64,000 nt of DNA from Curvularia clavata (lineage: Eukaryota): the NCBI GenBank assembly GCA_023920165.1, contig CP089277.1:1550001-1614000 (forward strand), given 5' to 3'. The notes under the pieces are model-generated. The model was not told the DNA's origin, searched no databases, and saw nothing but the letters and a program-made list of their open reading frames with translations. Every line of letters starts with the position of its first letter. Positions within the stretch are counted from its first letter, which is position 1. The position numbers and the translations under genes are program-made. Below, one piece after another: positions 18,558 to 41,323 of the stretch.

Positions 18558-20130
18558 CTGCATAGCGATATTAGTCCACAGAAGCCTAGCTACCGCTTCA
18601 TGGATCAGTTATGCAGTACGTGGCCACCCTCGTGCTGGAGAACCGTTCGGTCGGATGTTTCGATACGAGAAAAACCCGGCATGATTCAACAATGTATCTG
18701 GGATAGAAGAGCATATTTCATAGTGTATATGAGAGACAGGTTGTACGACATATCTAGGACCATGTGGTTCGAGATCGACACTGACCTGCCTTATCTAGTC
18801 ATTGTGCATGTTGCTCAGCTGCTTGGCATACCTTTTTCAGAGGCTGTACGACCATGGACTCGCCGCCTGTGTCACGGCATTATCATATCCCAGCACGGCC
18901 ATTATGATTCAGATCCACAGAACCCTGTCCTTACCTCAACAAGAGTATCGGAGTGTCACACAGCGCAGAACGGAATGTGTTCTGTAAGGCGTTCCATGCA
19001 GAAAGCGGAAAACTCCCAGGTATAGTGACTATCCCGAGAGCATTTCACTAGAGTGCAGCGACTAAATTGACGCCCTGGACCCACTTCCTCATGGCCCTAC
19101 ATATATGTACATATGCTCCAGCGGTCTCGGTATATACCAGGTTCCGGTGAGTTTCCACTAACCAAATTCAATTTTTCTCCCGCGACGAGCGAACCAGTTA
19201 TATCCGCCCTCAATTTGATACCCGCAACGCCACGGCTCCGCGGTCAAAGCTTGATTCAACTTCGATCTGCAGCCTTGCATACGCATGGACCAATTATGTT
19301 GCTCGGATAATTGATTGCTCGCAGGAGAGCAGGCAAGTGGGGTGATGCGCAGTCACCGGAACATCAATAGGACGCGGGAACTTTTTGAGGCGATGTTTGG
19401 CGAAGAAGTCGGGTACAGGCGGTGCATCTTATGCAGGCACCTAAAGGAGCGCATGACAGAGTAAAGCAATCATTCATGCCAAGCACTGCGACGGTCGCGG
19501 ATCCAGGCGTGATCCCGAAAGCTCTTCCGCCATGCCTCGTTGCCCAGAACTGCCGAGAACAAGATGTTGTAGGTGATCATATGCACCCACAGAAGCAGTA
19601 AGCCGCCTTCGACAAGCACAAAAGTTCAGCTTTTCGGCTCTCCACGCTCAGACCCGAACACAGCTACCAGCTGTACCGCCACTGCAATCCTTCAGGGACC
19701 CCGCAGTGGCGGGACTTTGTTGGCCCGTCGATGTAGATCTGGCGTGGTACGCTCCGCCCTAAGGCGCAGGTCAGCACTGATGCTATGAATAAGCTACTAG
19801 GTCTTATTACCCACGCTAGCAGTTCGGCTCAACACTACAACGTTGCCAACGTCCCACAGCGATAGGTCTCGCGATGGCCACGAGTCGTCCGCCAATGCTG
19901 TGTGTCGTGCCATGACAAGACTATGGCTTGTGGAGCTGGTAAGCGCCATCGTCCGCAGCAAACAATACATTTGGTCCTTTAGTCATGAAGGGGGAGCCAC
20001 CATGTGGGTAAGATCACGCTCTAGTCAAGATCAAGTATTGACTTCTTGGGAAGGAGGGTGGAAGACCTACGAGATACTCGCCTGGTGCCTAGATCGCCAC
20101 TCCGGGGAGAGCGGAGCATCTCCAGGTCAA

Positions 20131-20140
20131 CTATATATAA
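20131..20140 (+). promoter_or_regulatory. Putative TATA box of the peroxidase gene
   Basis: CTATATATAA about 260 bp upstream of ATG 20396, followed by a CT-rich leader. Confidence 0.5.
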
Positions 20141-20395
20141 CCTGGTGTTTGGTTCCTGACTTTCGCTTTATCGTTGTGTTTCAATAACGGTTCACGATAT
20201 CGAATTTGTTGCTTTTTTGCATCAAAGTTGTTGCCCTATCCTTATCCTCTATATCATCCTTATAACTGTACACACGGACACGAACACGGGGAATATTGGT
20301 CGTATTTCTCCTTTCGGTTCTTTTTTTCTCCTTCATCTTTATTATCTCTTTCCACCTTCCTTCCTCTAGTCTCTCTCTTCTCCAATCTGCCCCCG

Positions 20396-21391
20396 ATGCA
20401 TTATCCTATCTCAGTCACACTCCTCGCCCTCGCGGCCACATCGCCCATTTCCGCTATAAGCCTCTGGCCCCGCACCGACAGTTGCCCGTCGGTATGGAAA
20501 GAGGTAGCTTCGGAACTGCAATCAGCATTTGCTGGCTGTGGCGCTGATGCTCATGGCGCCATCCGCGCGCCTTTCCATGATTGCATCAACAACGGCTGTG
20601 ACGGTAGCCTCATCCTCTCAGATGAGTGCTCGCGCCGCGAAAACTCAGGCCTCACCGACATATGCGGAAAGCTCAAGGGCTGGACCGACAAGTACAAGGT
20701 TGGCGCTGCAGATATGATTCAGTTCGCCGCCGCAACCGCAATCTCTGCCTGCCCGTTGGGTCCCCGGGTGCAAGCTCTTGTCGGCCGAAAAGACAACAAA
20801 GCCGCATCGAACGTGGGAAGCGTGCCGTCAAGTCGCGGCTCAGTCAGCAGTATCTTGTCAGCGTTTTCGGCAAAGGGATTTTCGGCAGAGGATGTTGTGG
20901 CGCTCTTGGGAACACATTCTGTCGCGCTACAGTTCAATGACGATCCGGCGCAGGCGGGTAAGGCCCTGGACTCGACACCTGGAACATACGACAACACATT
21001 TTACAAAGAGACTAAGGCGGGTACGGCGCCCTATAGTCTGCAGAGCGACCGTCTGATGTCCAATGCCACCGAGGTATGTTTTCTCAGTTTTTTTCACGTC
21101 CCACATAGGACCTCTACCTGCTTCTTTTCCGGCTCACTTTAGCACTTTAAATATGCATTTTGACTAACGCTTGCGATGTAGACTGAAGCTGCATGGTCAT
21201 CATTTGCCGATTCAACAGACAAATGGCTCGCCGCATTCACCAGTGCGTGGAATAGATTTGCAGTCATCGGCAACGACGCAGGACAACTCAAGGATTGCTC
21301 TAGCCTCATCGCTGGCAGCCGCGCGAGCAGGAAGCGCATGGAGGCTAACGCGAAATTTACCGAGAGAATGAGCGCAAAATTCAGGATCTGA
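20396..21391 (+). CDS. Secreted class II heme peroxidase (CAZy AA2, generic type)
   Basis: Signal peptide MHYPISVTLLALAA; distal RAPFHD, GCDGS, GRKD, proximal LLGTHS, LDSTPG.YDN, LQSD. Intron 21074-21181. Confidence 0.92.
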
Positions 21392-21871
21392 GTAGTTTCG
21401 TTTTTCCGTTTTGTTTTTTATTTTTCGGCGAGACTGGCGACATGCGCGGGAAACTTGCTAAGAACGCTTTGGCGTGTTGGTGGATCGAAACAAAGGCATT
21501 TTTGGCATTTCAGATCATGTAAAATACTGTATGATGTTTATTTTAGTTTTCTTAGGCATGGGAACTTTGAGTAGGATAGGGATAGGGAAATTGGTAGTGA
21601 AAAGAATACATTCAGTCCATGTACCAAAATTGTACATCCGGATTCAAGAATTGTCGTATACTTAGTGTGAGAATGATGCCGTGATCCCTGCTCTGTGCAA
21701 CATCTTCAATCACAAAATGTCACCATAGCAGATACGCACAAGAATATGAACAAGATTTCGTCATTCGAAAAGATAATAATCAACATCGCTACAAGAATCG
21801 AAGCTTTCACCATCTAGGGAGAAAAGTATATACAGAAGGTATCTCTTTTTTTTGTAAGGCGAGTATTCGCT

Positions 21872-23418
21872 TTACATGAGGGCCTCGATCATACGGCGGA
21901 TCTTGGCAGCAGAGGCGCTTCCAGCCTCCTCCTCGAGGAAGGCAATGAAGGTCTCGAGAGTATACTTCTTCTCACCGGCACCAGCGGAGGGGGCGTCGGA
22001 AGGAGTAGCGGTGGGCTTGTTAGCCTCGGGGGCTACGCTGGTAGGCTCGGGCTTAGGCTCGGCAGCGGGGGAAGAAGGCTTGGGCTGAGAGCCGGCTGGA
22101 GGCGCAGACTGAGCTGGCTGAGCGGGGGCAGTGGTGGGCTTAGCAGCGGGAGGAGAGACAGGCTGAGGGCCCTTGCTGGGACCAGGCTGGTTGGTCTCAG
22201 GCTTGACACACTGGAAGTAGTAGGGGTTCCATTGCTTGCACTCGAGACCCTGAGCACACTGAGTGGAGCCCTTGTAGTTGAGGCCGCCACACTGGTACCA
22301 TTCCTTGATGGGACCGGAAGGCTCAGCAGTGGCGGTGGGGCGGACAGAGGTCATCATGGTGGTGGGAGCAACAACGACAGAGGAAGTGCTGTTGCTGGTA
22401 GGGAATGGGGCTACAGCGCTGGAGAGCGTGGCAGAGGGAGTAGGAGCGGCCTCAGACTTGGCGGGGGTAGAGGTAGCCTCAGCAGCGACGGGGGTCGAAG
22501 CAGCGGATGAAGCAGCGACGGACGAAGCAGCAGCGGACGAAGCAGCGACGGACGAGGCAGCGGTGGAAGAAGCAGGAGCCTCAGCGCCACCAGTAGCAGC
22601 GGGGACATCAGAGAGTGTGCCGAAGGTGAGGAGCTTAGGAGTAGCCTCAGTACCGCCGGCGATGAGCTTAGGGCCAGGGGCGGGGTAGGAGTCGAGGTTG
22701 GCGTGAATGGAGAAGCCGAGACCAGGGCCAGTCTTGCTGTAAGCCTCAGGGAAGGTAACACCCTTGGGCTCAAGGGTACCGCTACCGGTAACGGTGAGCT
22801 GGTAGCAAGTCATGTAGTGCTGAGCACCACCAGCAGGGCCAGCGGCGTGGAGGGCAATAGCCTCAGCACGGAGAAGGTAGTCACCAGCGGCGAGGTCCTT
22901 GGGGATGGTGAAGCTGAGCTTTCCGCCTGTGTTTCTGTTAGCAGAGCACAATGTGAGTAAGTGAGCAACGTACAGTTGTAGTTCAGGTCCTTGGTGCCCC
23001 AGAAGTCGTTGTCTCCCTGAGAAGCGGCTGGGTTCTTGGCCCAGGTGTTCTCGTAGATCTTGAAGAACTCGCTGGAACCATCGGCAGTGGCGGCATCCTC
23101 GACCTTGGACATGTATGCAAGGACAGGACCCCAGTGAGCACCACCAATAGCCTCGGTCTTGCAGTCACGGCTGTTGAACTGCTGGTGCATCTCAATGGTA
23201 ACTGTGTCACCAGCCTCGAAAGCACACTTTCCCTTGGCAGCGGCAGGGCTAACATTGCACTGAAGAGCCTTGCTAGTGTAGTCCTCGACAGGGCTGTTGG
23301 TGGAAGGCAACCTGGCACAGGTGCTCTCAAGATCCTCTCCGTTCTTCCAGAGCTGTTGGAAAGTGGCGTGGGCGTTGGCCATGGCCGCCAATACGGCGAT
23401 AGTTGCTACGGTCTTCAT
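21872..23418 (-). CDS. AA9 lytic polysaccharide monooxygenase with internal CBM1 and C-terminal extension
   Basis: Signal peptide then His1 (HATFQQLW), HWGPV, YLLRAEAIALH, GAQHYMTC. Intron 22973-22927. CBM1 WYQCGG...WNPYYFQC. Confidence 0.95.
22496..22575. repeat. Imperfect 15-nt tandem repeat encoding SS(V/A/T)AA units of the AA9 linker
   Basis: GAAGCAGC(G/A)(G/A)CGGA(C/T)-type units repeated about five times. Confidence 0.75.
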
Positions 23419-23657
23419 GGTGATTGGGATAGTTGGAGTAGTAGCGATGTTGTGGAAAATGAATGACAGGTCAAACGAGTGACTAAAGAGTGACTGAAAA
23501 AAAACAAAGAAGGGATGAATGACGAAGTCTTGCAAAGAGAGAATGTCCAGCGCAGCTGCGTTACCGTTAGAGAGGGTGGAGGGCACGAGGGCTTATATCG
23601 TCGTGCGTAGGAATTGGTCCCAGCCCGTGAGGCCGAGAAACAGTTAGTATAGTCATG

Positions 23658-23862
23658 TTTAGCCGTTTCGTCTACTGGCCATCCAATATTGACTGCGGCG
23701 CAGGGGCGCAAACGTGTTTGAAGAACGGGCGGGAGACATGAACGAAGGAACGTATGCTATGCCACAAGGAGTAGTCTGCGAGCTAGAACCAGGTGGGTGG
23801 GTCGCGTTCGAGAAACTGACAGCAAGCTAGCGCCGGCAGCCTTTGCCGGGATGGGCTTAGCC
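23658..23862 (-). promoter_or_regulatory. Two XlnR/Xyr1-type GGCTAA sites upstream of the AA9 gene
   Basis: GGCTAAA at 23664-23658 and GGCTAA at 23862-23857 on the minus strand; TATAA near 23595. Short motifs that could occur by chance. Confidence 0.4.
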
Positions 23863-26800
23863 CCGGTTTGATCATGACATAGGCGAGATTTTTGGGGCAT
23901 TGCAGGGGCTTTCTCAAGCATCCTCTTGACCGTTGGCGACACTGACTTTGCAGCTTGTGCACTTGATTCCAACCCAGGGCGTCATTGGTGTTCACTGGCT
24001 GTTGCTGGAGTCTGCATTGTTTGCAGGTATCCAAGTCCCGAAACCCAGTAAAGCATCCATACAAAAATTAGCTTTCGGCTGACCACGTCATGGACGTATA
24101 CATGTGTTCGCCGGCTCCGATGCTGTCGTCCCGTTGAGCGGGAGGTTTTAATCATGGGCTGCGCTGTGCAATTTCACCAATCTGCGCGATGAAATACATT
24201 GCGGGTCAAGCACCAGTGGCGTGAGCTCCCCCAGAAGAACTGTTCCCCTTCAGAACGCAACTGCACAAACATGTTGGTTGTTCCACAGGTTATCCGGAAA
24301 AGTAAAAAGAGCCTTACCATGAAGACGTTACTGCTTACCCAGAGCCCAGTTCACCAGGCGTATCAACTATAGTCCAACGGCAAGTGCTTGTTCTGCGCGC
24401 GCCAAGGTGAAACACTGTAGTGGAGCAAGGCGAAACACGCTCTGCACGAGATGCTGATCCCGTATTGGCGCCAACCAAATCCAACATGAACCTGCATTGA
24501 AGAGCGGTTAAAATGATCGGTAAAGTAGACATAGACCAATGACGTTGTTTGCAGACTAAGATTAGTGCTGTTTCGTTCAGATTGTTTTAGGCGCCATTGA
24601 CCTTCTCCCCCATCTCAGATCATGACCCCCCACTCCAGGCGTGATTCGAGTCGACAAAGAGGTGGCCTTGATAAGCCTCTTAACGCACCAAGACGTATTT
24701 GTGAAGGCTACACAACTGCGGTATCAACAAATTATCTATTTTTGATGCTGGTCGCCCTATTCCAAGATCTTGGCATTGCCCTTTGCTGTGAACCCGCTAT
24801 TACACTGGCTTTTCATAATGCCCCTACCCCCTTTGCCTTGTCGAAGAGCTTTTCGGTTTTCGTGCGTTCTCCTTGACACCGCTTTGTCGAAACCCATGTC
24901 AGCCGGACAAATTACTCGGGAGCCAGAACATGAAGTCATTCACCATCCGTTTGCTCTGGGATTCCCTGACGTGTCTACTGCTGGCCCTAAATTCTTTTGC
25001 AGTTCGAAATCTCCGATAAAGCGGGTCGGCAAGCATATCCTCGTACCGACCAACAATGGGAAAATTTTCAGTGTGCTATACGCGGAGTTTTACAACTATA
25101 AGATTACCTTCAAGCTTATGCTCCGGCTGCCCCTGTCGGCAGCTTCGGATTGTGTATACCATAGCAGAGACCAGGATGTAGCTAGGCGCGAGCTCTGTCA
25201 TGACTGTGTCCCTTTGAAAGTCTATTGACTGCGTTGAGCTGCGAGACAGTAATTGATGAGGCATGCAGGTACTTCTACGTAATCTCTTCGCAACGTATCC
25301 GATCCCCGGCTTCTTTCGCAGCCCTACAAGGCTCTGGTCTTCTCAACGTCTGTCGTACCCCACAGTCGCAAAACTGTATCAGATATCTGACTTCCGGTCA
25401 TGGTGTCGGACCACCTGACGAGATACTGTTCAACTGTTACTTCTTCAGCATTCATTCAGAACAGGCCGGCCCAGACTCGTTTTAGGGTTTCTGGCAGTGC
25501 AGAGAGGCTGTGAATCACTAGCGCCATAGCCAAACACAAAATTGGCTATGTGGAAGCCCCGCAATTGCAAATACTCGTGAATGCTGGGAAGTGGCAGAGG
25601 TTCATTAAAAACAAAACAAGAAGGATTCGAGTGATAACGCGGTTGTTTTCCTATGGCCACTTCTGTAATGACCGGCCTGCATACGATTTGACAGCTATTA
25701 CGGACCTTGAGCACTCGTTCTAAAACAAGTAGCGCTTTTAGTCTAGGCTCATATTCTGCGCCTCTCTTGATGCAAGGTCGGCTGCCAAGCGAAGAAAAGT
25801 CTGTTGATGGGCTTGTGATAGTAATCGAAGCCGCTCTCCGGATACGCGGCACTTTCGCTAGGAGCTACCACTGAAGATGGATACGAATAAGCAGTCATTC
25901 CAAGCGACAAGCTGAAACCGTGGTGGCAAGACTGAGGGGAAGATAATCGAGGGCGCTGGACTACAGAGTTGGCAGTGAAAAGCATTTGCTCTTTTTCAAT
26001 TGCAATGCTTTATAGACTAAGCTGACATCTGGTAGTGTACCAAGGACAAGCCTGGGCGCCTAGGAACATAAGTTCTTTGCCCAACACACTAACACACGCT
26101 GGAAATCCAGAACGTCTCGCCTGATCAGCAATCACATATGTGGCGCGTCAGCGTCAGCTCCCATGTATCCGAATCACACGCCGTGCACTGCGGACGGAAA
26201 TGCAGCTGTCAGGAGCATTTCAAGCACGGTGTTGTTATGCTGCGTAGAAGAGGAGGCAATTCAGCAAGGTGTACAAGGGTCCGAACACCCCAGTTGCATT
26301 GCATATCAGAGAATATCATTTGCGATTGTACCTGACGTTAATGACCTGTTCCAGTGGTTACAAAATGATGCGCAAGCGACCCCTTTACTGATTCCGTGGT
26401 GCACGGCTGGGCATAGCTTATTTTCACATCTCAATTGTCACTTCGGCATTATTATTGCTTTTTTGGCGGCGCTATCGGCATGCGGGATCTTCACAGCCTC
26501 ATCCCTGTCTGGGCTTTGTGGGCCGCCGTTGCGAGGCTGCTCGTGTGAGCCTGGGATACCTCGAAAACGCGTTGGGCTTGCGACAAGCGAAAATGCATCT
26601 TTTCAATCTACTCTGGTTTGGCCCTACAATCTAGCCGAAGATGCGCGTCAAGAGATAGTGCATTCAACTCACTGTGAGTAGCTAGGTATTCTTTCAGGTG
26701 GGTGTTGTCTACATCACATCCTCGACATTCGTCTGCACATCCCCTATGCCACTGCATGCAGGAACCGGCACTAGGTACCGTGCGTTGCTTTTGTAACGAG

Positions 26801-27314
26801 CAAAGACAAGCGAAGCCACCACTGGCCTTACTGCAGATCTCACACCGATGTGTGCGCTGTTGGGATTGAATGGCTGATTTCGTGCCCTGCGTGGGATCAG
26901 CGTATGTGTGGCGCTTGTAGGGCGTTTTTTGGCGTCTGAAACCATGTACTAAAAGAAATATACACTCGCTTTTCTCTTCGTACGATTCGCTCGCGAAAAC
27001 CATTTGGGAAAACAGCGTCCCGCTCACTCCCCAGACTTCCTTCTTCGGTCAATACACTCGATACCAGTGTCTCAAGTCTGTGGAATTTCGGGCTTAGCCT
27101 TCGCTTCACCGTATACCAATATTCAAAGTTAAACAAAGCACATGAAGTTGACGTAAAGCACGGAGCAGAGATGATCGTTTATATACGGCACTCGCCCTGA
27201 TGCATTTGATCGATCAGGCCAGTTGTTTTTCAACTCAGTCACTCGTTTCTTTTCTGGTCGTTTTCAAAGCAAGTGCCTCGCCGTTGTACTTGTTGCATTC
27301 TTTATTACTACGCA

Positions 27315-29588
27315 ATGGTCGCCTACAGTCCTTACCTTGCTGCTTCAGCATCACTTTCGTCTGTCTATCATGCAGCTACACCGTCCGAGTTTCAGGCCCC
27401 GTCTGCTTGCCATGTAGTCACTGCTACTGTCACCGAGTACGCCACTGCTCGGCCCACCACCAACGAGCATGGACACGGCGGACCATACTACAATCCTTAC
27501 AATGATGTGCCACTTCCGTTTGAGTGGCCGGGCAAGCCTTCTCATGGCGAACTCTACCCTCCTCCTATGCCGACTCCGCCTTATCCGTACGGCGGTCCAG
27601 CAAAAGACTCGTACGAAGGGCCATGCTGGATCCCGAAAGGCACCGACAACCTCGTGCCCGCTCTTCCAAGTGTAGAGCAGTGTGGAAACTCGCAATGGGG
27701 ATCGATCGACAATCCGCATCTTCCCGTTGATGGTCTTCCGGGTGGCCACTCAAACTATACGCACCCATGGGCCACCAAGTCGATCGCTAGACCTCCGTAT
27801 CCTACTGCGGTCGGATCAGGGTATGTCTCTTTGAATGTTTCAAAGACGTACACTGCTGGGCCTACTGGTACCCCGGTGCCAGACCCTCTATGCCCTACCA
27901 TACCTGACACTGGTGTAACGAGGACTTACGATCTTCATATTGCATACCAAACTATCGCACCAGATGGTGTGACCAGGAACGGGTTGACTATCAATGGGCA
28001 ATTCCCCGGCCCACTCGTGGAGGCTAACTGGTGAGTGTGAAATGAGTATACATGTTCATCTGGCTGACGGCTTGCAGGGGTGACTGGATCCTATGGAGAG
28101 TTACCAACGATCTTACCGACGAAGGTACCACACTTCATCCGCACGGTCTTCTCCAGACCCAGACGAGCTGGTACGATGGGGTCCCTGCAGTAGCCCAGTG
28201 CCCTATTACACCCAACGGCGGTTACCAGGAAATGTTGTTCCGCGCTGATCGATACGGAACATCATGGTACCACAGTAAGTTCCAGAAGTTGATGACTACC
28301 TTCGAGTCCCATGCTAACCTGTTCAGGTCACTACAGTGCTCAGTACTCCGGTGGTGCGCATGGTCCAATGGTCATCTACGGTCCAAAGCACGAGGAATAC
28401 GACATCGACATCGGTCCTATCGTTCTCGAGGATTGGTTCCATGCTGATTACTACTCTTTGGTAGAGGGAACCATGCAAGGCAGATTCCCTCCCTCGAACA
28501 ACAACTTGATCAATGGCCGCATGAACTACCCTTGTGCTAACACGACCTTGCCTTGCACACCCAATGCCGGTGTCTCCAAGTTCAAGTTCCAATCCGGCAA
28601 GAAGCACCTTTTACGCCTCATCAACATGGGTGCTGAGGGTAACCAGAAGTTCAGTATCGACGGACATGTCTTGAAGGTTATTGCTGTTGACTTTATTCCG
28701 ATTGAACCATACACGACCAACGTCGTCACGCTTGCAGTTGGTCAGCGCTCTGACGTTATCGTTGAGGCAGTTGGAAAGCCCAGTGACACTTTCTGGATGC
28801 GCTCTCAACTTGCTCAAGGTTTCCGTTGCACACTTACTGACGGTATTTCGCCAAACGCCCTTGCTGCTGTTTACTACGAGGACGCCGACAGCAACGCCAT
28901 CCCCCAGTCCGTCTCGAACGTCACTCAAGCGCAGCTGCAGCAGTGCAAGAACGACCCCATTGATCTTGGTGCTCCTCTATGCAAGATTCCCTTGGAAGAG
29001 CCTGACCATGTTGAACGTGTTGACTTTGAGTTCCGCTCCAACGGCACAAACTTCATCTGGTATCTCAATAACAGCACCTACCGCGGCAACTTCAACGACC
29101 CTACGCTCCTCAAAGCGAAGAAGGGCGAGACCCAGTTCCCGGCCGAATCCAACGTGTACCAATTCCCTGGCGCAAAGAACGTTCGCTTCCATCTCGTGAA
29201 CCACGGTCTCATTGGCGGACACCCAATGCACCTTCACGGACACGACTTTCACGTTCTGGCTGAAGGTTATGGGGAGTGGGATGGCACTGTCACCAACCCA
29301 GAGAACACTCTTCGCCGTGATGTACACCAGATGCAGAATGCGCGCAACGTAAGCGGAGTCGTCGAGCCATCCTACATGGTGCTTCAGTTTGTGCAGGACA
29401 ACCCAGGTGCCTGGCCACTGCACTGCCATCTTGCATGGCACGTTAGCGGCGGCTTGTTCCTGCAGATCTTGGAGCACCCAGATGAGATCCGCAAGCAGGA
29501 GTTTGATGAGGATGTGTTCAGGGTCTGCGAAGAGTGGGATGCGTATACCGCGGAGAACGTCATAAATCAGATTGACTCGGGACTGTAG
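27315..29588 (+). CDS. Laccase-like multicopper oxidase (CAZy AA1)
   Basis: Copper motifs HPHG, WYHSH, HPMHLHGH, HCHLAWHVSGGL; ascomycete C-terminus IDSGL. Introns 28031-28077 and 28275-28326. Confidence 0.95.
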
Positions 29589-30017: not shown

Positions 30018-30863
30018 ATGACTATGAATGCAACACCCCAACAGCTGAAAGTTTTGCTCACTGGCGGCGCACGAGGCATTGGGCGCGGCCTCTTCCGGCA
30101 CCTTCTGACCGCCGGCCATGAAGTTATAATCCTAGACTCAAACCAGGAAGAACTCGAGCACGTGAAGACGCGGGCGCAGGAATGGTCCAACGGCGACAAG
30201 CAAAACTGGCACGCGCTCCAATGCGACCTCAGCTCGCGCAACCAACTCAAGGCCGCCGTCGACGAGGTCAAACAGAAATTTAATGGCAAGTTGGATGTTC
30301 TAATTAACAATGCGTTCCCGACGGACCTCAACATCTCGGAAGACCGCCGCATGGAAGCGCAAGGAGAGGACATGGAGAAAGAATGGGATTTGAAAATTGC
30401 AGTTGGACTCACTGCGCCGTTCATTCTAAGTCGCCTGTGCGTCCCGCTTCTGGCAGCGGGCCGCTCGACGCCGAATTCGCCGGGCACAATTATCAATATG
30501 TCGTCGACCCGTGCATATCAAGCAGAAGAGAATCACGAGGCGTACTCTGCGGTAAAAGCGGGGCTTTTGGGGCTGACAAAGTCAATGTGTGTGTCACTGG
30601 GGCATCGTCATAAAATCAGGGTGAATGCGATTATCCCTGGGTGGATTCATGTCGCCAATGAAAGCAAAGCTGGAGACGGGAAGGGAGCGAAATGGGAGGA
30701 AGGGCTAACTGAAGATGATACAGCTTGGCATCCTGCGGGGAGGGTGGGCAAGGTAGAGGATATTGCCAAGGCGGTCGAGTACGCGGTGGGCAACGAGTTT
30801 GTGACTGGCCAGGAGATAGTGGTGGATGGTGGTGTTGGGCGGAAGATGGTGTACCCAGAGTAA
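30018..30863 (+). CDS. Short-chain dehydrogenase/reductase
   Basis: TGGARGIG, LDVLINNA, NMSS, YSAVK, IRVNAIIPGWI, VTGQEIVVDGG. Confidence 0.93.
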   Translation: MTMNATPQQLKVLLTGGARGIGRGLFRHLLTAGHEVIILDSNQEELEHVKTRAQEWSNGDKQNWHALQCDLSSRNQLKAAVDEVKQKFNGKLDVLINNAFPTDLNISEDRRMEAQGEDMEKEWDLKIAVGLTAPFILSRLCVPLLAAGRSTPNSPGTIINMSSTRAYQAEENHEAYSAVKAGLLGLTKSMCVSLGHRHKIRVNAIIPGWIHVANESKAGDGKGAKWEEGLTEDDTAWHPAGRVGKVEDIAKAVEYAVGNEFVTGQEIVVDGGVGRKMVYPE

Positions 30864-39082: not shown

Positions 39083-40708
39083 TCAGACACTCAGTGCAGA
39101 GTAGCAGTCATGCACACCTTTCCGTAATCCCTGTTCAAACAACCAGGTAAAGCCACCCCTGTATCCACTCTCTCTAATACGCTTCAAAACCCAAAGTTCG
39201 AGCATACCGATTTTATCCCCACGTGTATCCCTTCCCTCGAAGAATGCAAGCGCATCTTGATACCCGACCTGCCAGCCGTGTTCGTACTTTTCATGCTCAT
39301 ACTGGCCGTTCGGATCAACGCCGCTCCAGTAAGACACATGCTCTTGGAAAGCTTTCTGGAAAAGCTCCGCTCGCTCATGTTGAGCTTTCTCAATCGACCC
39401 GTGCCTTTGCTCAGCAGTCATAGTTGCATAGTTTGGCGGTACAATACTGCCTTCTTCTGTCTTAGCCTTGAAGCCCCACTCACCCCCCGGCATCCAGTCC
39501 ATCTTCCATGTCCAAAAGAAGCTACCTCCAGCTCGCTCCTGATACCTTCTGCTCTGCGCTTGGCCAAACTGTTTGACCAACTCTTCCTTTGGTACACCAC
39601 CCCCCTTGGCCCAAGAGTCCTCAGTCATGACGCACGAGTACTCGCCAACAATGACTTGCACAGCGCCACGGTCATGGACGGAGCCTTCCTTGCCATCCAG
39701 TTGTCCCAGCTTAGTACCAGCCTCGTGAATGATTTGCTGTGGCGACTTTGCTTTGTCCTCATCCGTGAAGGCCCAATAGTAATGTGTATCGACTACTACC
39801 GGGCACTGGTCAGAGTAGATGGAGTTCTTTTGCAGTGACCAGTCAATAGCTTTTTCAACGTTCCAGCCATCAGAAATGACAACGGGCATTGCAGGGTCAA
39901 TGGCAGATATAGCGCCTATACACTCGTCATACCACTCGTACATTCGCTCTGACTCCCACTCGGCCTCGTTCACGAGCTGTATGCCAGCAATCTCAGCCCC
40001 GGCTTTTGTGTCTTCAGCAATGAACTGGCAACAACGAACCCCCAGAGAGCGGCAGGTGGGGCTGCACCAAAATCCAGCATGTCCACTATTTGTTCCAGAA
40101 TGCTCCTGCGCGTTTGCACCTCCAGGAAGGGCGTGCAAATCGATCAAAACTCCAATCGAACGTGCGCGCAGTCGTTGAATCAAGGTGCGGATGCTGTACC
40201 ACGCTCCAGTATAGACTTCAGCATAAGGTTCAAAGGGGGTGCCCTTGGTGAAGACTGCGCCAGGCAAGTCGTAGTAGCCGATGGGCAAACGAACAGTAGT
40301 GCATTTAGCTACGTTAGCAAGCCACCCAATAGCATTTTCTGAGACGATATTGGCCCAGTGCTCCTCAAACTTTTTCTTCGTCTCGTCGATACCAATCCTG
40401 TCGACCCATGCCTTGACTGCTGCAAGCTCACTGGATCCTTCGGCTCCTTCAGGGAATCGAGAATGTTGGAGCCAGCGCTCAATGACATAGACGGACCCGA
40501 GATTCGTACCATGGTGGTAGCGGTAGCGAAGAATATCTAGGAATGTAGGGTCGGAAATACCCCGTTGCTGACATCCAGAGCCATGTGCATTGTGATGATG
40601 GGCAGGAGAAAGGGGGGATTGATGTTGGCTCTGTGGATGGCCAGGGTCGGCATTCTGTTGAGTCAGATTTTTGAACTCGCTCTTGGCTTTCTGAAGAAAG
40701 CCTCTCAT
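39083..40708 (-). CDS. Intracellular GH5 beta-glucanase/glucosidase (Exg3/YBR056W-like)
   Basis: NLGSVYVIERW, VRLPIGY, DLHALPGGAN..EHSG, acid/base VNEA, DTHYY, nucleophile VGEYS, FFWTWK. No signal peptide. Confidence 0.9.
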   Translation of the reverse strand: MRGFLQKAKSEFKNLTQQNADPGHPQSQHQSPLSPAHHHNAHGSGCQQRGISDPTFLDILRYRYHHGTNLGSVYVIERWLQHSRFPEGAEGSSELAAVKAWVDRIGIDETKKKFEEHWANIVSENAIGWLANVAKCTTVRLPIGYYDLPGAVFTKGTPFEPYAEVYTGAWYSIRTLIQRLRARSIGVLIDLHALPGGANAQEHSGTNSGHAGFWCSPTCRSLGVRCCQFIAEDTKAGAEIAGIQLVNEAEWESERMYEWYDECIGAISAIDPAMPVVISDGWNVEKAIDWSLQKNSIYSDQCPVVVDTHYYWAFTDEDKAKSPQQIIHEAGTKLGQLDGKEGSVHDRGAVQVIVGEYSCVMTEDSWAKGGGVPKEELVKQFGQAQSRRYQERAGGSFFWTWKMDWMPGGEWGFKAKTEEGSIVPPNYATMTAEQRHGSIEKAQHERAELFQKAFQEHVSYWSGVDPNGQYEHEKYEHGWQVGYQDALAFFEGRDTRGDKIGMLELWVLKRIRESGYRGGFTWLFEQGLRKGVHDCYSALSV

Positions 40709-41323
40709 TGTGGAGGGCTGGGCAACGTTGGCAAGATAGCGGTGCACAAGAACGAGTCAACCCCGCCTTTCGTATAACAAGAAGATGATGGCAGTAGAGC
40801 TTTTGTCGGCTCGCAAGGCACTGGCGTTTGAGTAAGGTTTGAAGATTGAATGGGCATGGAGAGTAGAAGGCTGCATGGCTGGAATAAACACTAAGAGCCG
40901 CGTACCCGTGTCTATGCTTTCTAGGAATGACGTAGCCTGTAGGGCTGGAGACGTGCAAGCGCGAGTCTACTGTCTGCACGCAGGGACTATGAGATGCCGC
41001 ATCTTATCGGACTGGGCCGCCGTTCGGCAAATTACCCCTTGGTGTAGCATGTGGGGGTTGACGTTTTGCTCAAAGGTCCTAGGAGCAGCATGACATGTGT
41101 GATTTCCACTGGTGGTCTAGCGGAATGGCCCATCAGAATCGCCGAAACACGATTCCGCCACCATGACGAGAAAACAGACAGATGCCGTCCCAATTTCAAA
41201 GACAATCACCGCATTGACAATACTCGGGAGAGAGAAGTGTTGTAAAACTCGTAGGCGAAAAGAGATTAGGTAGCCACGCCGCAATCCCGCCAAGCTGGAC
41301 CCTGACGTGCCCCCCCGCCTCAA

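What the first reader, a model, noticed from the sequence alone, without database searches (positions are those of the whole stretch)
20396..29588. Three consecutive oxidative 'auxiliary activity' genes: AA2 peroxidase, AA9 LPMO, AA1 laccase
Seen: the peroxidase is convergent with the LPMO, the LPMO and laccase are divergent across a 3.9-kb shared upstream region, and an SDR follows. Known: LPMOs produce and consume H2O2 and accept electrons from phenolics; laccases generate phenolic redox mediators; peroxidases use H2O2. Inference: a co-regulated extracellular redox module for plant cell-wall attack or H2O2 control, embedded among housekeeping genes. This is the best candidate in the window for an undescribed system.
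Basis: partly seen in the sequence, partly recalled or inferred. Interest (0 to 1): 0.7.

Follow-up and report, generated by a model that had tools for sequence, protein, structure and literature searches.

The report
Linked peroxidase, LPMO and laccase genes
Three ordinary secreted oxidative enzyme genes of a Curvularia fungus lie side by side, and this neighbourhood is inherited across many related fungi together with unrelated housekeeping genes, so it looks like conserved gene order rather than a proven enzyme system.

Summary
Window 20396-29588 (Curvularia clavata by a 100% protein match) carries a class II haem peroxidase (+), an AA9-CBM1 LPMO (-) and a three-domain ascomycete laccase (+), followed by an SDR. 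Spliced RNA contigs confirm all four introns.

Peroxidase and LPMO carry numbers at most 4 apart in 17 of 19 named Pleosporales species. They lie within 6 kb in 9 metagenome loci. The laccase sits beside them in at least 6 named species and in locus L001.

This linkage is not specific to the trio:
- The peroxidase already belongs to published Pleosporales syntenic block 266, one of 502, together with six upstream genes.
- Relatives carry an unrelated IBR/RBR gene between LPMO and laccase, and an F-box-like gene between peroxidase and LPMO. C. clavata lacks both.
- The laccase is missing at the locus in L024 and L011.
- The strongly conserved LPMO promoter motifs do not recur upstream of the other two genes.
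- A published secretome lists the LPMO orthologue but not the laccase orthologue.

Verdict: real genes and real conserved synteny, but a co-regulated redox module is unproven. Interest is modest.

The parts
20396..21391 (+). Class II (AA2) haem peroxidase, 295 aa. Exons 20396-21073 and 21182-21391 (stop TGA 21389-21391). Signal-peptide-like N-terminus and a basic C-terminal tail.
   Evidence: PF00141. Exon 1 is 100% identical to P0241, named 'ligninase LG6 precursor [Curvularia clavata]'. Intron joint in runs X1, X9 and X11. Distal R..FHD and proximal GTHS motifs are invariant in A1. Nearest solved structures are versatile, manganese and lignin peroxidases and CiP.
21392..21629 (+). Peroxidase 3' UTR, ending in a poly(A) site.
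   Evidence: Loose end of 20 A behind 21629 in X13; contig X1 record 1 reaches 21607.
21782..21838 (-). Conserved element in the LPMO 3' UTR. It holds an invariant TGTA[TC]ATA and the block TTC[GT]ATTCTTGTAGCGA.
   Evidence: blastn 82-86% in L001, L006, L008, L009 and L024, and 76% in L011. Alignment A6 of 8 sequences.
21872..23418 (-). AA9 LPMO. Order: signal peptide, His1 catalytic domain, Ser/Ala linker, CBM1, Pro/Ala-rich tail, 33-aa C-terminal X283-like motif. Exons 23418-22974 and 22926-21872 (stop TAA 21874-21872).
   Evidence: PF03443 and PF00734. Intron joint in X1, X9 and X11. Orthologue alignment A2. The orthologue P0121 is nearest to NcLPMO9D, 5TKF/4EIR.
21875..21973 (-). C-terminal motif EKKYTLETFIAFLEEEAGSASAAKIRRMIEALM of the LPMO.
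   Evidence: 78-89% identity over the 36-residue stretch in 7 loci (A5); 85-94% over the 33-aa core in tblastn. A profile search found it only on AA9/CBM1 proteins, fragments, and 4 spurious long repeat proteins. Paralogous AA9s end in RRHAR, which fits the published X283 consensus RXHAR.
23419..23960 (-). LPMO promoter and 5' UTR, with blocks invariant across 7 taxa: CCCCTGCAAT (23899-23908), CCAAT box, GTAGACGAAACG (23664-23675), TATAAG, and CGCAGCTGCGCTGG (23547-23560).
   Evidence: blastn 71-72% over about 380 nt in L001, L024, L006, L008 and L009. Alignment A4. Motif positions.
23961..27314 (.). Rest of the LPMO-laccase spacer. No conserved coding sequence was found. It corresponds to the place of the IBR/RBR gene in relatives, and it holds an unspliced 747-nt contig at 24916-25652.
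   Evidence: No Pfam hit for its 4 longest ORFs. No tblastn hit in the window for IBR genes of 6 loci at E<=0.01. X1 record 4.
27315..29588 (+). Ascomycete laccase (AA1), 724 aa, with a conserved N-terminal extension of about 200 aa that is predicted to be disordered. Exons 27315-28030, 28078-28274 and 28327-29588. The protein ends in DSGL.
   Evidence: PF07732, PF00394 and PF07731. Both intron joints, and contig 5' ends at 27284/27289. The orthologue P0005 is nearest to Botrytis aclada laccase 3SQR at E 9e-103. Extension aligned in A3. Model mean pLDDT 36.9.
30018..30863 (+). Short-chain dehydrogenase/reductase downstream of the laccase. It is a syntenic neighbour, not shown to belong functionally.
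   Evidence: PF13561 and PF00106. Found beside the LPMO in L011 and L024.

Best explanation
The region holds three separately transcribed genes for secreted oxidoreductases. The first is a low-redox 'generic' class II haem peroxidase without a Mn site or catalytic Trp. The second is a cellulose-targeted AA9 LPMO with CBM1 and an X283-like tail, closest to C4-oxidising NcLPMO9D. The third is an ascomycete laccase. They lie together because the arrangement arose once in an ancestor of the Pleosporineae and has been carried along inside a larger block of conserved gene order that also holds housekeeping genes. In C. clavata two unrelated intervening genes seen in relatives (an IBR/RBR E3-ligase-like gene and an F-box/2EXR-like gene) are absent, which makes the three enzymes directly consecutive. 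Shown: gene identities, splicing, transcription, and conserved linkage. Inferred: secretion, regioselectivity, and that linkage reflects inherited microsynteny rather than selection. Outside the cell the three enzymes will share the same H2O2 and phenol pool, as any such enzymes do, but nothing here shows a dedicated, co-regulated system.
For: Identities. Splicing and transcripts. Linkage with unrelated genes: window genes at 10.7-18.3 kb are colinear with the trio in L001, L004 and L006. The IBR gene (PF01485) lies in the same neighbourhood in 8 loci: L001, L006, L008, L009, L011, L013, L020 and L024. The 286-aa F-box-like gene lies between peroxidase and LPMO in L006-L009, L024 and L002. Table S8 of Ohm et al. 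2012, syntenic block 266, places cluster 5651 as a block member with six further genes. I read 5651 as the peroxidase from gene order, from S. turcica protein 103216 = the laccase P0004, and from the consecutive accessions EDU39540/41/42. In that table the LPMO (clusters 98/31116) and the laccase (cluster 41) are unnumbered flanking genes. The same paper reports 502 such blocks in at least 75% of 8 Pleosporales (section 9). The laccase is absent between LPMO and SDR in L024 and L011, and no cluster-41 gene is listed in the A. brassicicola row. LPMO promoter motifs match at the LPMO only, or at chance level elsewhere. The peroxidase promoter is poorly conserved, at 41% mean column identity, against 67% with long invariant blocks for the LPMO.
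Against: The peroxidase-LPMO pair survives local rearrangements. In L002, L011 and L013 the LPMO lies upstream on the same strand, and the upstream housekeeping genes of the window are not found in those loci. The pair is kept in Pleosporaceae, Phaeosphaeriaceae, Didymellaceae and Cucurbitariaceae: 17 of 19 named species have numbers at most 4 apart. Random placement makes this exact trio rare (0.00012). I could not run a genome-wide control of how long arbitrary neighbour pairs stay together, so selection for the pair is not excluded. The biochemistry linking H2O2, phenols and LPMOs is real (PMC10520884, seen only as a search listing and the start of its abstract).
Confidence: 0.62

Rival explanations
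1. The peroxidase and the LPMO form a selected functional pair. The LPMO's oxidase side reaction feeds H2O2 to the peroxidase, or the peroxidase keeps H2O2 low enough to protect the LPMO. Linkage is maintained because the two are inherited and expressed together. The laccase is an optional third partner that supplies phenolic reductants.
For: Numbers are adjacent in 14 named species, one apart in 2 and three apart in 1. An LPMO lies within 6 kb of the peroxidase in 9 loci of about 8 taxa, in two different orientations. The pair is kept in Bipolaris even though the syntenic peroxidase there is only 53-55% identical to the window's. All three transcripts occur in each of the 4 runs laid.
Against: The IBR gene is retained nearby about as often, in 8 loci. 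No shared conserved promoter element was found. N. cava (tags 57 apart) and Coniothyrium glycines (different contigs) break the pair. Presence in the same runs is not co-regulation.
Confidence: 0.2
2. It is the full three-enzyme, co-regulated extracellular redox module that the first reader proposed.
For: The trio is consecutive or nearly so in P. seminiperda, P. tritici-repentis, P. teres, Phaeosphaeriaceae sp. PMI808, Neocucurbitaria sp. VM-36 and L001. By my reading of Table S8 it is also so in C. heterostrophus, C. sativus and S. turcica.
Against: The laccase is absent at the locus in L024 and L011. An unrelated IBR gene separates LPMO and laccase in L001, and lies on that side of the LPMO in L006, L008 and L024. 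The laccase promoter shows no DNA conservation between the window and L001. The laccase orthogroup extends across Dothideomycetes, far beyond the peroxidase and LPMO hits. The laccase orthologue 294641 does not occur in the supplements of a secretome study that list the LPMO orthologue 306352 of the same fungus.
Confidence: 0.08
3. It is a small tailoring-enzyme cluster for a secreted or wall-bound phenolic metabolite, with laccase, SDR and peroxidase acting on a small molecule and the LPMO as a bystander.
For: Some sources name distant relatives of the laccase 'oxidoreductase ptaK' or 'ops5'. An SDR follows the laccase.
Against: No backbone enzyme family was found among the 38 largest ORFs of the window. 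The laccase is closest to classical secreted asco-laccases and ends in DSGL. SDR and LPMO stay together without the laccase in L011 and L024.
Confidence: 0.05

Closest known systems
Pleosporales syntenic block 266 of Ohm et al. 2012 (PLoS Pathog 8:e1003037; section 9 and part 55 of Table S8 read)
   Same: Same chromosomal neighbourhood. S. turcica protein 103216 (= the laccase orthologue P0004) and the genes I read as LPMO and peroxidase lie at the edge of this block in C. heterostrophus C5, C. sativus, S. turcica and P. tritici-repentis.
   Different: The paper numbers only seven gene clusters as block members. The LPMO and the laccase appear as unnumbered flanking genes, and no function or redox link is discussed. 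My assignment of cluster numbers to the LPMO and the peroxidase is an inference from gene order.
AA9 LPMOs with a disordered C-terminal region and the X283 motif, such as CoAA9A of Colletotrichum orbiculare (PMC10990093; abstract, section 10 and X283 passages read)
   Same: An AA9 with a long disordered tail that ends in a short, conserved, positively charged motif. Paralogues found with the tail profile end in RRHAR, which fits RXHAR.
   Different: The window's motif reads RRMIE instead of RXHAR, has no Cys before it (the Cys mediates CoAA9A dimerisation), and follows a CBM1. Dimerisation or a role in infection is untested here.
NcLPMO9D / PMO-2 (PDB 5TKF, 4EIR)
   Same: It is the best solved match of the orthologue P0121 (E 2e-35). 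The N-terminal His, the second His and the Q-x-Y motif are present.
   Different: Similarity is moderate. Regioselectivity and substrate are not established. NcLPMO9D, as solved, has no CBM1 or tail.
Ascomycete laccases (Botrytis aclada 3SQR, Aspergillus niger McoG 5LM8, Melanocarpus albomyces 1GW0)
   Same: Three cupredoxin domains, four copper motifs and a C-terminal DSGL. E is 9e-103 to 3SQR for the orthologue P0005.
   Different: A conserved N-terminal extension of about 200 aa, rich in Pro, Tyr and Gly. It has no Pfam hit, no Atlas hit and a model with mean pLDDT 36.9.
Fungal class II peroxidases: VP, MnP, LiP, CiP and the ascomycete sub-classes CIIAA, CIIAB and CIIAC (PMC6937255, passages read)
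   Same: PF00141. Distal Arg/His and proximal His. The Cys and Ca-site motifs are conserved.
   Different: At the positions aligned to the Mn-binding Glu, Glu and Asp and the catalytic Trp of Pleurotus VP, the window has Ala, Gly, Phe and Ala (the roles of the VP residues are recalled). It is therefore not a MnP, VP or LiP. The sub-class was not assigned.
In-vitro synergy of LPMOs with lignin-degrading peroxidases and laccases (for example PMC10520884; only the search listing and the start of the abstract were seen)
   Same: The same three enzyme classes, which share H2O2 and phenolic electron carriers.
   Different: That work mixes enzymes on the bench. It does not describe a genomic cluster, and my searches found none.

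Membership tests
AA2 / class II haem peroxidase | Peroxidase domain with distal Arg and His and proximal His | tested here: met
   PF00141 at 109 bits. R57, F60, H61, D62 and H174 are invariant in 30 sequences.
Ligninolytic MnP / VP / LiP | Mn-binding Glu/Glu/Asp triad or surface catalytic Trp | tested here: not met
   The alignment to VP 5ABQ shows A, G and F at the triad positions and A at the Trp position. The roles of the VP residues are recalled.
AA9 LPMO | AA9 domain with His as the first residue of the mature protein, a second His and an axial Tyr | tested here: met
   PF03443 on both exons. The N-terminus reads ...MANA|HATFQ, with GGAHWGP and GAQHY conserved in A2. The signal cleavage site is inferred.
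AA9 LPMO | Oxidative cleavage of cellulose, and its regioselectivity | not testable with these tools
   There is only similarity to C4-type NcLPMO9D and a CBM1.
AA9-X283 LPMOs | C-terminal short motif RXHAR after a disordered tail, preceded by a Cys in the dimerising members | tested here: inconclusive
   The tail and a conserved terminal motif are present. The motif reads RRMIE and has no Cys. Paralogues hit by the same profile carry RRHAR.
AA1 laccase (ascomycete type) | Three cupredoxin domains with the four His-rich copper motifs and a C-terminal DSGL | tested here: met
   PF07732, PF00394 and PF07731. The motifs HPHG, WYHSH, HPMHLHGHDF and HCHLAWHVSGGL and the terminal DSGL are read. E is 9e-103 to 3SQR for the orthologue.
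Co-regulated functional gene cluster | Members stay linked in relatives | tested here: met
   Peroxidase-LPMO numbers are at most 4 apart in 17 of 19 named species. LPMO-laccase are at most one gene apart in 6 named species. An LPMO is present in 9 loci.
Co-regulated functional gene cluster | Linkage is specific to the functionally related members and all members are kept | tested here: not met
   IBR, F-box-like, SDR and housekeeping genes are equally syntenic. The laccase is absent in L024 and L011.
Co-regulated functional gene cluster | Shared regulation (common cis-elements, co-expression) | tested here: inconclusive
   The invariant LPMO promoter motifs are not found in the other two promoters. 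Transcripts of all three occur in 4 of 4 runs laid, but expression levels and conditions could not be compared.

The most novel reading that the evidence does not exclude
The convergent peroxidase-LPMO pair, with the laccase as an optional third partner, is a selected unit of Pleosporineae plant-associated fungi. In this reading a generic class II peroxidase is kept next to an X283-type, CBM1-bearing LPMO to couple or buffer H2O2 at the cellulose surface during penetration or decay, and linkage has been maintained through inversions for tens of millions of years.
Probability: 0.15. Interest if true: 0.6.

Novelty: new member of a known kind. Interest (0 to 1): 0.3.

Why it matters
If the peroxidase-LPMO linkage were selected, it would be a rare genomic hint of how fungi manage H2O2 around LPMOs in nature. 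It would also give a defined gene pair to test in crop-associated Pleosporales. As it stands, the result is mainly a caution. In Pleosporales, conserved neighbourhood alone does not show a functional system, because hundreds of blocks, including this one, keep unrelated genes together. The annotations may still be useful: RNA-confirmed gene models, an X283-like LPMO tail, strongly conserved LPMO promoter and 3' UTR elements, and a conserved laccase extension.

Tried and rejected
- **Own genome:** no whole genome is held for the window. A genome-wide count of AA genes and a control for neighbour retention could therefore not be run.
- **Earlier findings:** nothing was returned.
- **RNA holders:** The look-up of sequencing runs listed no holder on record as RNA. 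The four runs I laid nevertheless gave spliced contigs. Depths were not used to rank genes. The uncovered parts of the spacer are not taken as silence.
- **Laccase distribution:** I first read as showing no laccase orthologue in Bipolaris, Didymellaceae and Leptosphaeriaceae. I rejected that reading. The search only saw proteins of 230-734 aa, full-length orthologues reach 737-745 aa, and Table S8 lists a cluster-41 gene at the locus in Cochliobolus.
- **Docking hypothesis:** I considered that the LPMO tail docks onto the basic C-terminal tail of the peroxidase. The tails do not co-vary across families, and the motif occurs only on AA9 proteins. I therefore sent no complex-prediction job.
- **Laccase N-terminal extension:** no Pfam hit, no Atlas hit, and the AlphaFold model has mean pLDDT 36.9. 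No fold search was made on that model.
- **Spurious profile hits:** four long proteins with 6-10 partial matches to the tail profile (P0411, P0413, P0415, P0419) are repeat proteins. Three of them carry Por_Secre_tail. I treated all four as spurious.
- **Literature:** searches for a described AA2-AA9-AA1 cluster and for six orthologue locus tags found nothing relevant.
- **Peroxidase in the secretome study:** the peroxidase orthologue could not be identified in the secretome tables, because its JGI number is unknown to me.

Full report
**What is there**

Translating the region and scanning Pfam gives four genes:
- a haem peroxidase (PF00141) on the + strand;
- an AA9 LPMO with a CBM1 (PF03443, PF00734) on the - strand;
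- a three-domain multicopper oxidase (PF07732, PF00394, PF07731) on the + strand;
- an SDR downstream.

Exon 1 of the peroxidase is 100% identical to a protein that a source names 'ligninase LG6 precursor [Curvularia clavata]'. The window is therefore from that fungus or a near-identical strain. No whole genome is held for it.

I read the gene models from the sequence:

| Gene | Strand | Exons |
|---|---|---|
| Peroxidase | + | 20396-21073, 21182-21391 |
| LPMO | - | 23418-22974, 22926-21872 |
| Laccase | + | 27315-28030, 28078-28274, 28327-29588 |

I laid contigs of four public runs on the region. The tool only guesses that these runs are RNA.
- All four introns appear as GT..AG joints. The peroxidase and LPMO introns are in X1, X9 and X11. 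Laccase intron 1 is in all four runs. Laccase intron 2 is in X1, X9 and X13.
- A 20-A loose end lies behind 21629.
- An LPMO contig ends at 21676.
- Laccase contigs start at 27284 and 27289, 26-31 nt before the ATG.

The three genes are thus transcribed as separate, spliced mRNAs. Pieces of all three occur in each of the 4 runs laid. Contig depths cannot rank expression, and I did not use them for that.

**What the proteins are**

*Peroxidase.* It is a class II peroxidase. The distal R..FHD and the proximal GTHS are invariant in 30 aligned sequences. Its best solved relatives are versatile, manganese and lignin peroxidases and CiP. At the positions aligned with the Mn-binding triad and the catalytic Trp of Pleurotus VP it has Ala, Gly, Phe and Ala (the roles of those VP residues are recalled). 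It is therefore a 'generic' low-redox type, whatever the automatic name 'ligninase' suggests.

*LPMO.* After a signal peptide it starts with His (MANA|HATFQ) and keeps the second His and the Q-x-Y motif. Its orthologue P0121 is closest to C4-oxidising NcLPMO9D. After the CBM1 comes a Pro/Ala-rich tail ending in a 33-residue motif, EKxYTLETFIAFLExxAGSxSAAKIRRMIEALx. This motif is 85-94% identical in taxa whose linkers are unalignable.

A profile of the motif, searched over 1.84 billion proteins, found 21 proteins at E<=0.001:
- 17 are AA9/CBM1 proteins or short fragments;
- 4 are long repeat proteins that I regard as spurious.

Paralogous AA9s among the hits end in RRHAR. That fits the published X283 motif 'RXHAR' of AA9 tails (PMC10990093, passages read). 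The window's version (RRMIE, with no preceding Cys) is a divergent form.

*Laccase.* Its orthologue P0005 is closest to Botrytis aclada laccase (E 9e-103). The window protein has the four copper motifs and ends in DSGL. It carries a conserved N-terminal extension of about 200 aa. That extension has no Pfam hit and no Atlas hit, and it folds with mean pLDDT 36.9.

**Is the trio linked in relatives?**

Yes. I treated consecutive locus tags or accession numbers as a proxy for adjacency.

Peroxidase and LPMO:
- Adjacent in 14 named species: Pyrenophora seminiperda, P. tritici-repentis, P. teres, Alternaria burnsii, A. arborescens, Bipolaris oryzae, B. maydis, Phaeosphaeriaceae sp. PMI808, Boeremia exigua, Didymella exigua, Didymella sp. 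IMI 355093, Neodidymelliopsis sp., Ascochyta lentis and Pyrenochaeta sp. MPI-SDFR-AT-0127.
- One number apart in 2 species: Ophiobolus disseminans and Neocucurbitaria sp. VM-36.
- Three numbers between them in Plenodomus lindquistii.
- Not near each other in 2 species: Neocucurbitaria cava (57 tags apart) and Coniothyrium glycines (different contigs).

That makes 17 of the 19 species for which I could compare numbers.

The laccase is adjacent to the LPMO, or one number from it, in P. seminiperda, P. tritici-repentis, A. postmessia, P. teres, PMI808 and Neocucurbitaria sp..

A scan of metagenome contigs with the peroxidase alignment gave 28 loci. Of these, 25 are at least 65% identical to the window's peroxidase and 3 are distant (43-46%). 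tblastn of all window ORFs against the loci gave the following:
- An LPMO lies within 6 kb in 9 of the 25 loci: L001, L002, L006, L008, L009, L011, L013, L014 and L024.
- 14 of the other 16 loci are too short or lack the relevant flank.
- L020 and L021 show no LPMO downstream and hold almost nothing upstream.
- By their best named peroxidase, the 9 positive loci come from three Alternaria groups, three Phaeosphaeriaceae and a Didymella.
- In the three Phaeosphaeriaceae loci (L002, L011, L013) the LPMO lies upstream on the same strand. The pair has therefore survived local inversion.

**Is the linkage special to the three enzymes?**

No.
- In L001, L004 and L006 the housekeeping genes at window 10.7-18.3 kb are colinear too.
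- An IBR-domain (RBR E3-ligase-like) gene lies between LPMO and laccase in L001. It lies on that side of the LPMO in L006, L008, L009 and L024, and near the peroxidase in L011, L013 and L020. That is 8 loci in all.
- A 286-aa gene with an F-box/2EXR-like 'ELRNRIYE' start lies between peroxidase and LPMO in L006-L009, L024 and L002. No Pfam hit was found, and the 2EXR label is recalled.
- Neither of these two genes has any tblastn hit in the 64-kb window. C. clavata therefore lacks both. Its 3.9-kb 'shared upstream region' is the place where the IBR gene sits in relatives.
- The laccase was found in only 1 of the 9 loci (L001). In L024 and L011 the SDR follows without it. In the other 6 loci the DNA held ends too early to tell.

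The literature provides a baseline. Ohm et al. 2012 found 502 blocks of conserved gene order present in at least 75% of 8 Pleosporales, whose last common ancestor they date to 41-61 million years ago (section 9). In their Table S8, block 266 contains S. turcica protein 103216, which is the laccase orthologue P0004, as a flanking gene. I read the rows with the window's gene order and with the consecutive P. tritici-repentis accessions EDU39540/41/42. On that reading:
- cluster 5651 (a numbered block member) is the peroxidase;
- clusters 98/31116 are the LPMO;
- cluster 41 is the laccase;
- cluster 1947 is the SDR;
- the six other block members are the genes upstream of the peroxidase.

This mapping is my inference. 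On it, the trio is consecutive in C. heterostrophus C5, C. sativus, S. turcica and P. tritici-repentis. A. brassicicola shows LPMO and peroxidase without a cluster-41 gene.

**Regulation**

About 0.5 kb upstream of the LPMO is conserved at 71-72% in five loci. It contains blocks invariant in 7 taxa: CCCCTGCAAT, a CCAAT box, GTA[AG]ACGAAACG, TATAAG and the palindromic CGCAGCTGCGCTGG. In the window these motifs match exactly only at the LPMO, and near-matches elsewhere are at chance numbers. The peroxidase promoter aligns poorly across 9 taxa, at 41% mean column identity. The laccase-proximal part of the spacer shows no DNA similarity to L001. The LPMO 3' UTR holds a conserved element with TGTA[TC]ATA. 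Nothing points to one shared control region.

**Secretion**

The supplements of Zeiner et al. 2016 (PMC4951024) list the LPMO orthologues of Alternaria alternata (1006432), Pyrenochaeta sp. (533298) and Stagonospora sp. (306352) among the secretome proteins they identified. The laccase orthologue of the same Stagonospora strain (294641) occurs in none of the 9 files. I could not map the peroxidase orthologue to an entry.

**Chance**

A simulation with 5 AA2, 24 AA9 and 12 AA1 genes among 12,500 genes gave the following:
- an AA2-AA9 pair within 2 genes in 3.8% of simulated genomes;
- the full trio in 0.012%;
- any three of 100 auxiliary-activity genes within 5 consecutive genes in 3.5%.

The AA9 figure of 24 comes from Ohm et al.. 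The AA2 range comes from PMC6937255. The other figures are recalled or assumed. Because all relatives share the arrangement by descent, it counts as one event.

**Conclusion**

However, the same test is passed by unrelated neighbours, one member is dispensable, and no shared regulation was found. The best reading (about 0.6) is three ordinary secreted oxidoreductase genes held in an inherited microsyntenic block. A selected peroxidase-LPMO pair remains possible (about 0.2). The full three-enzyme module is unlikely (under 0.1). My searches found no description of such a cluster.

Noticed in passing
window 21875-21973 (-): The LPMO ends, after its CBM1 and a disordered tail, in a 33-aa motif (EKKYTLETFIAFLEEEAGSASAAKIRRMIEALM). 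The motif is 85-94% conserved across Pleosporales and is related to the X283 motif of AA9 tails, but it lacks the RXHAR core and the Cys.
   Followed up: yes
window 21782-21838 (-): The LPMO 3' UTR holds an element conserved in 7 other loci, with an invariant TGTA[TC]ATA and the block ATTCTTGTAGCGA. The first resembles a Pumilio-type binding site (recalled), which hints at post-transcriptional control.
   Followed up: partly
window 23547-23560, 23664-23675, 23899-23908 (-): The LPMO promoter has blocks invariant across 7 taxa from three families: the palindrome CGCAGCTGCGCTGG just after the TATA box, GTAGACGAAACG, CCCCTGCAAT and a CCAAT box. They are candidate binding sites for unknown factors.
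   Followed up: partly
window 27315-27950 (+): The laccase has an N-terminal extension of about 200 aa, rich in Pro, Tyr and Gly (motifs HGHGGPYYNPYND, WPGKPS, GNSQWG). It is conserved across Dothideomycetes, has no Pfam or Atlas match, and gives a model with mean pLDDT 36.9.
   Followed up: partly
window 24916-25652: An unspliced 747-nt contig of run X1 lies in the LPMO-laccase spacer, where relatives carry an IBR/RBR gene. No protein family matched the ORFs there.
   Followed up: no
L001:15480-16580, L024:6354-7532, L008:8186-9460, L008:1982-2839: Relatives carry an IBR-domain gene and a 286-aa F-box/2EXR-like gene inside the trio. Neither has a trace in the 64-kb window, so C. clavata has lost them or never had them at this place.
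   Followed up: yes
P0350, P0354 (Bipolaris) versus window 20396-21391: The peroxidase adjacent to the LPMO in Bipolaris oryzae and B. maydis is only 53-55% identical to that of C. clavata, whereas the Alternaria one is 79% identical. This suggests accelerated divergence in the sister genus.
   Followed up: partly
window 22499-22558 (-): A contig of run X11 'goes back 60' here. That is a 60-nt length difference in the repetitive Ser/Ala linker of the LPMO. The same run also holds contigs about 92% identical to the laccase, so a second related strain or species is present.
   Followed up: no
window about 19330-20395 (+): The 2170-nt X1 contig that carries the spliced peroxidase mRNA extends about 970 nt beyond 20300 upstream. 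This implies either a very long 5' UTR or an overlap with an unannotated upstream transcript.
   Followed up: no
window 21310-21391 (+): The peroxidase ends in a basic tail (RKRMEANAKFTERMSAKFRI). The tail is conserved in Pleosporaceae but takes a different form in Didymellaceae and in Phaeosphaeriaceae. Its function is unknown.
   Followed up: partly
window 39086-40756 (-): A GH5 (cellulase family) ORF lies about 9.5 kb downstream of the laccase, among otherwise housekeeping genes (AP-complex mu subunit, Pal1, RabGAP, methyltransferase, glycosyltransferase).
   Followed up: no
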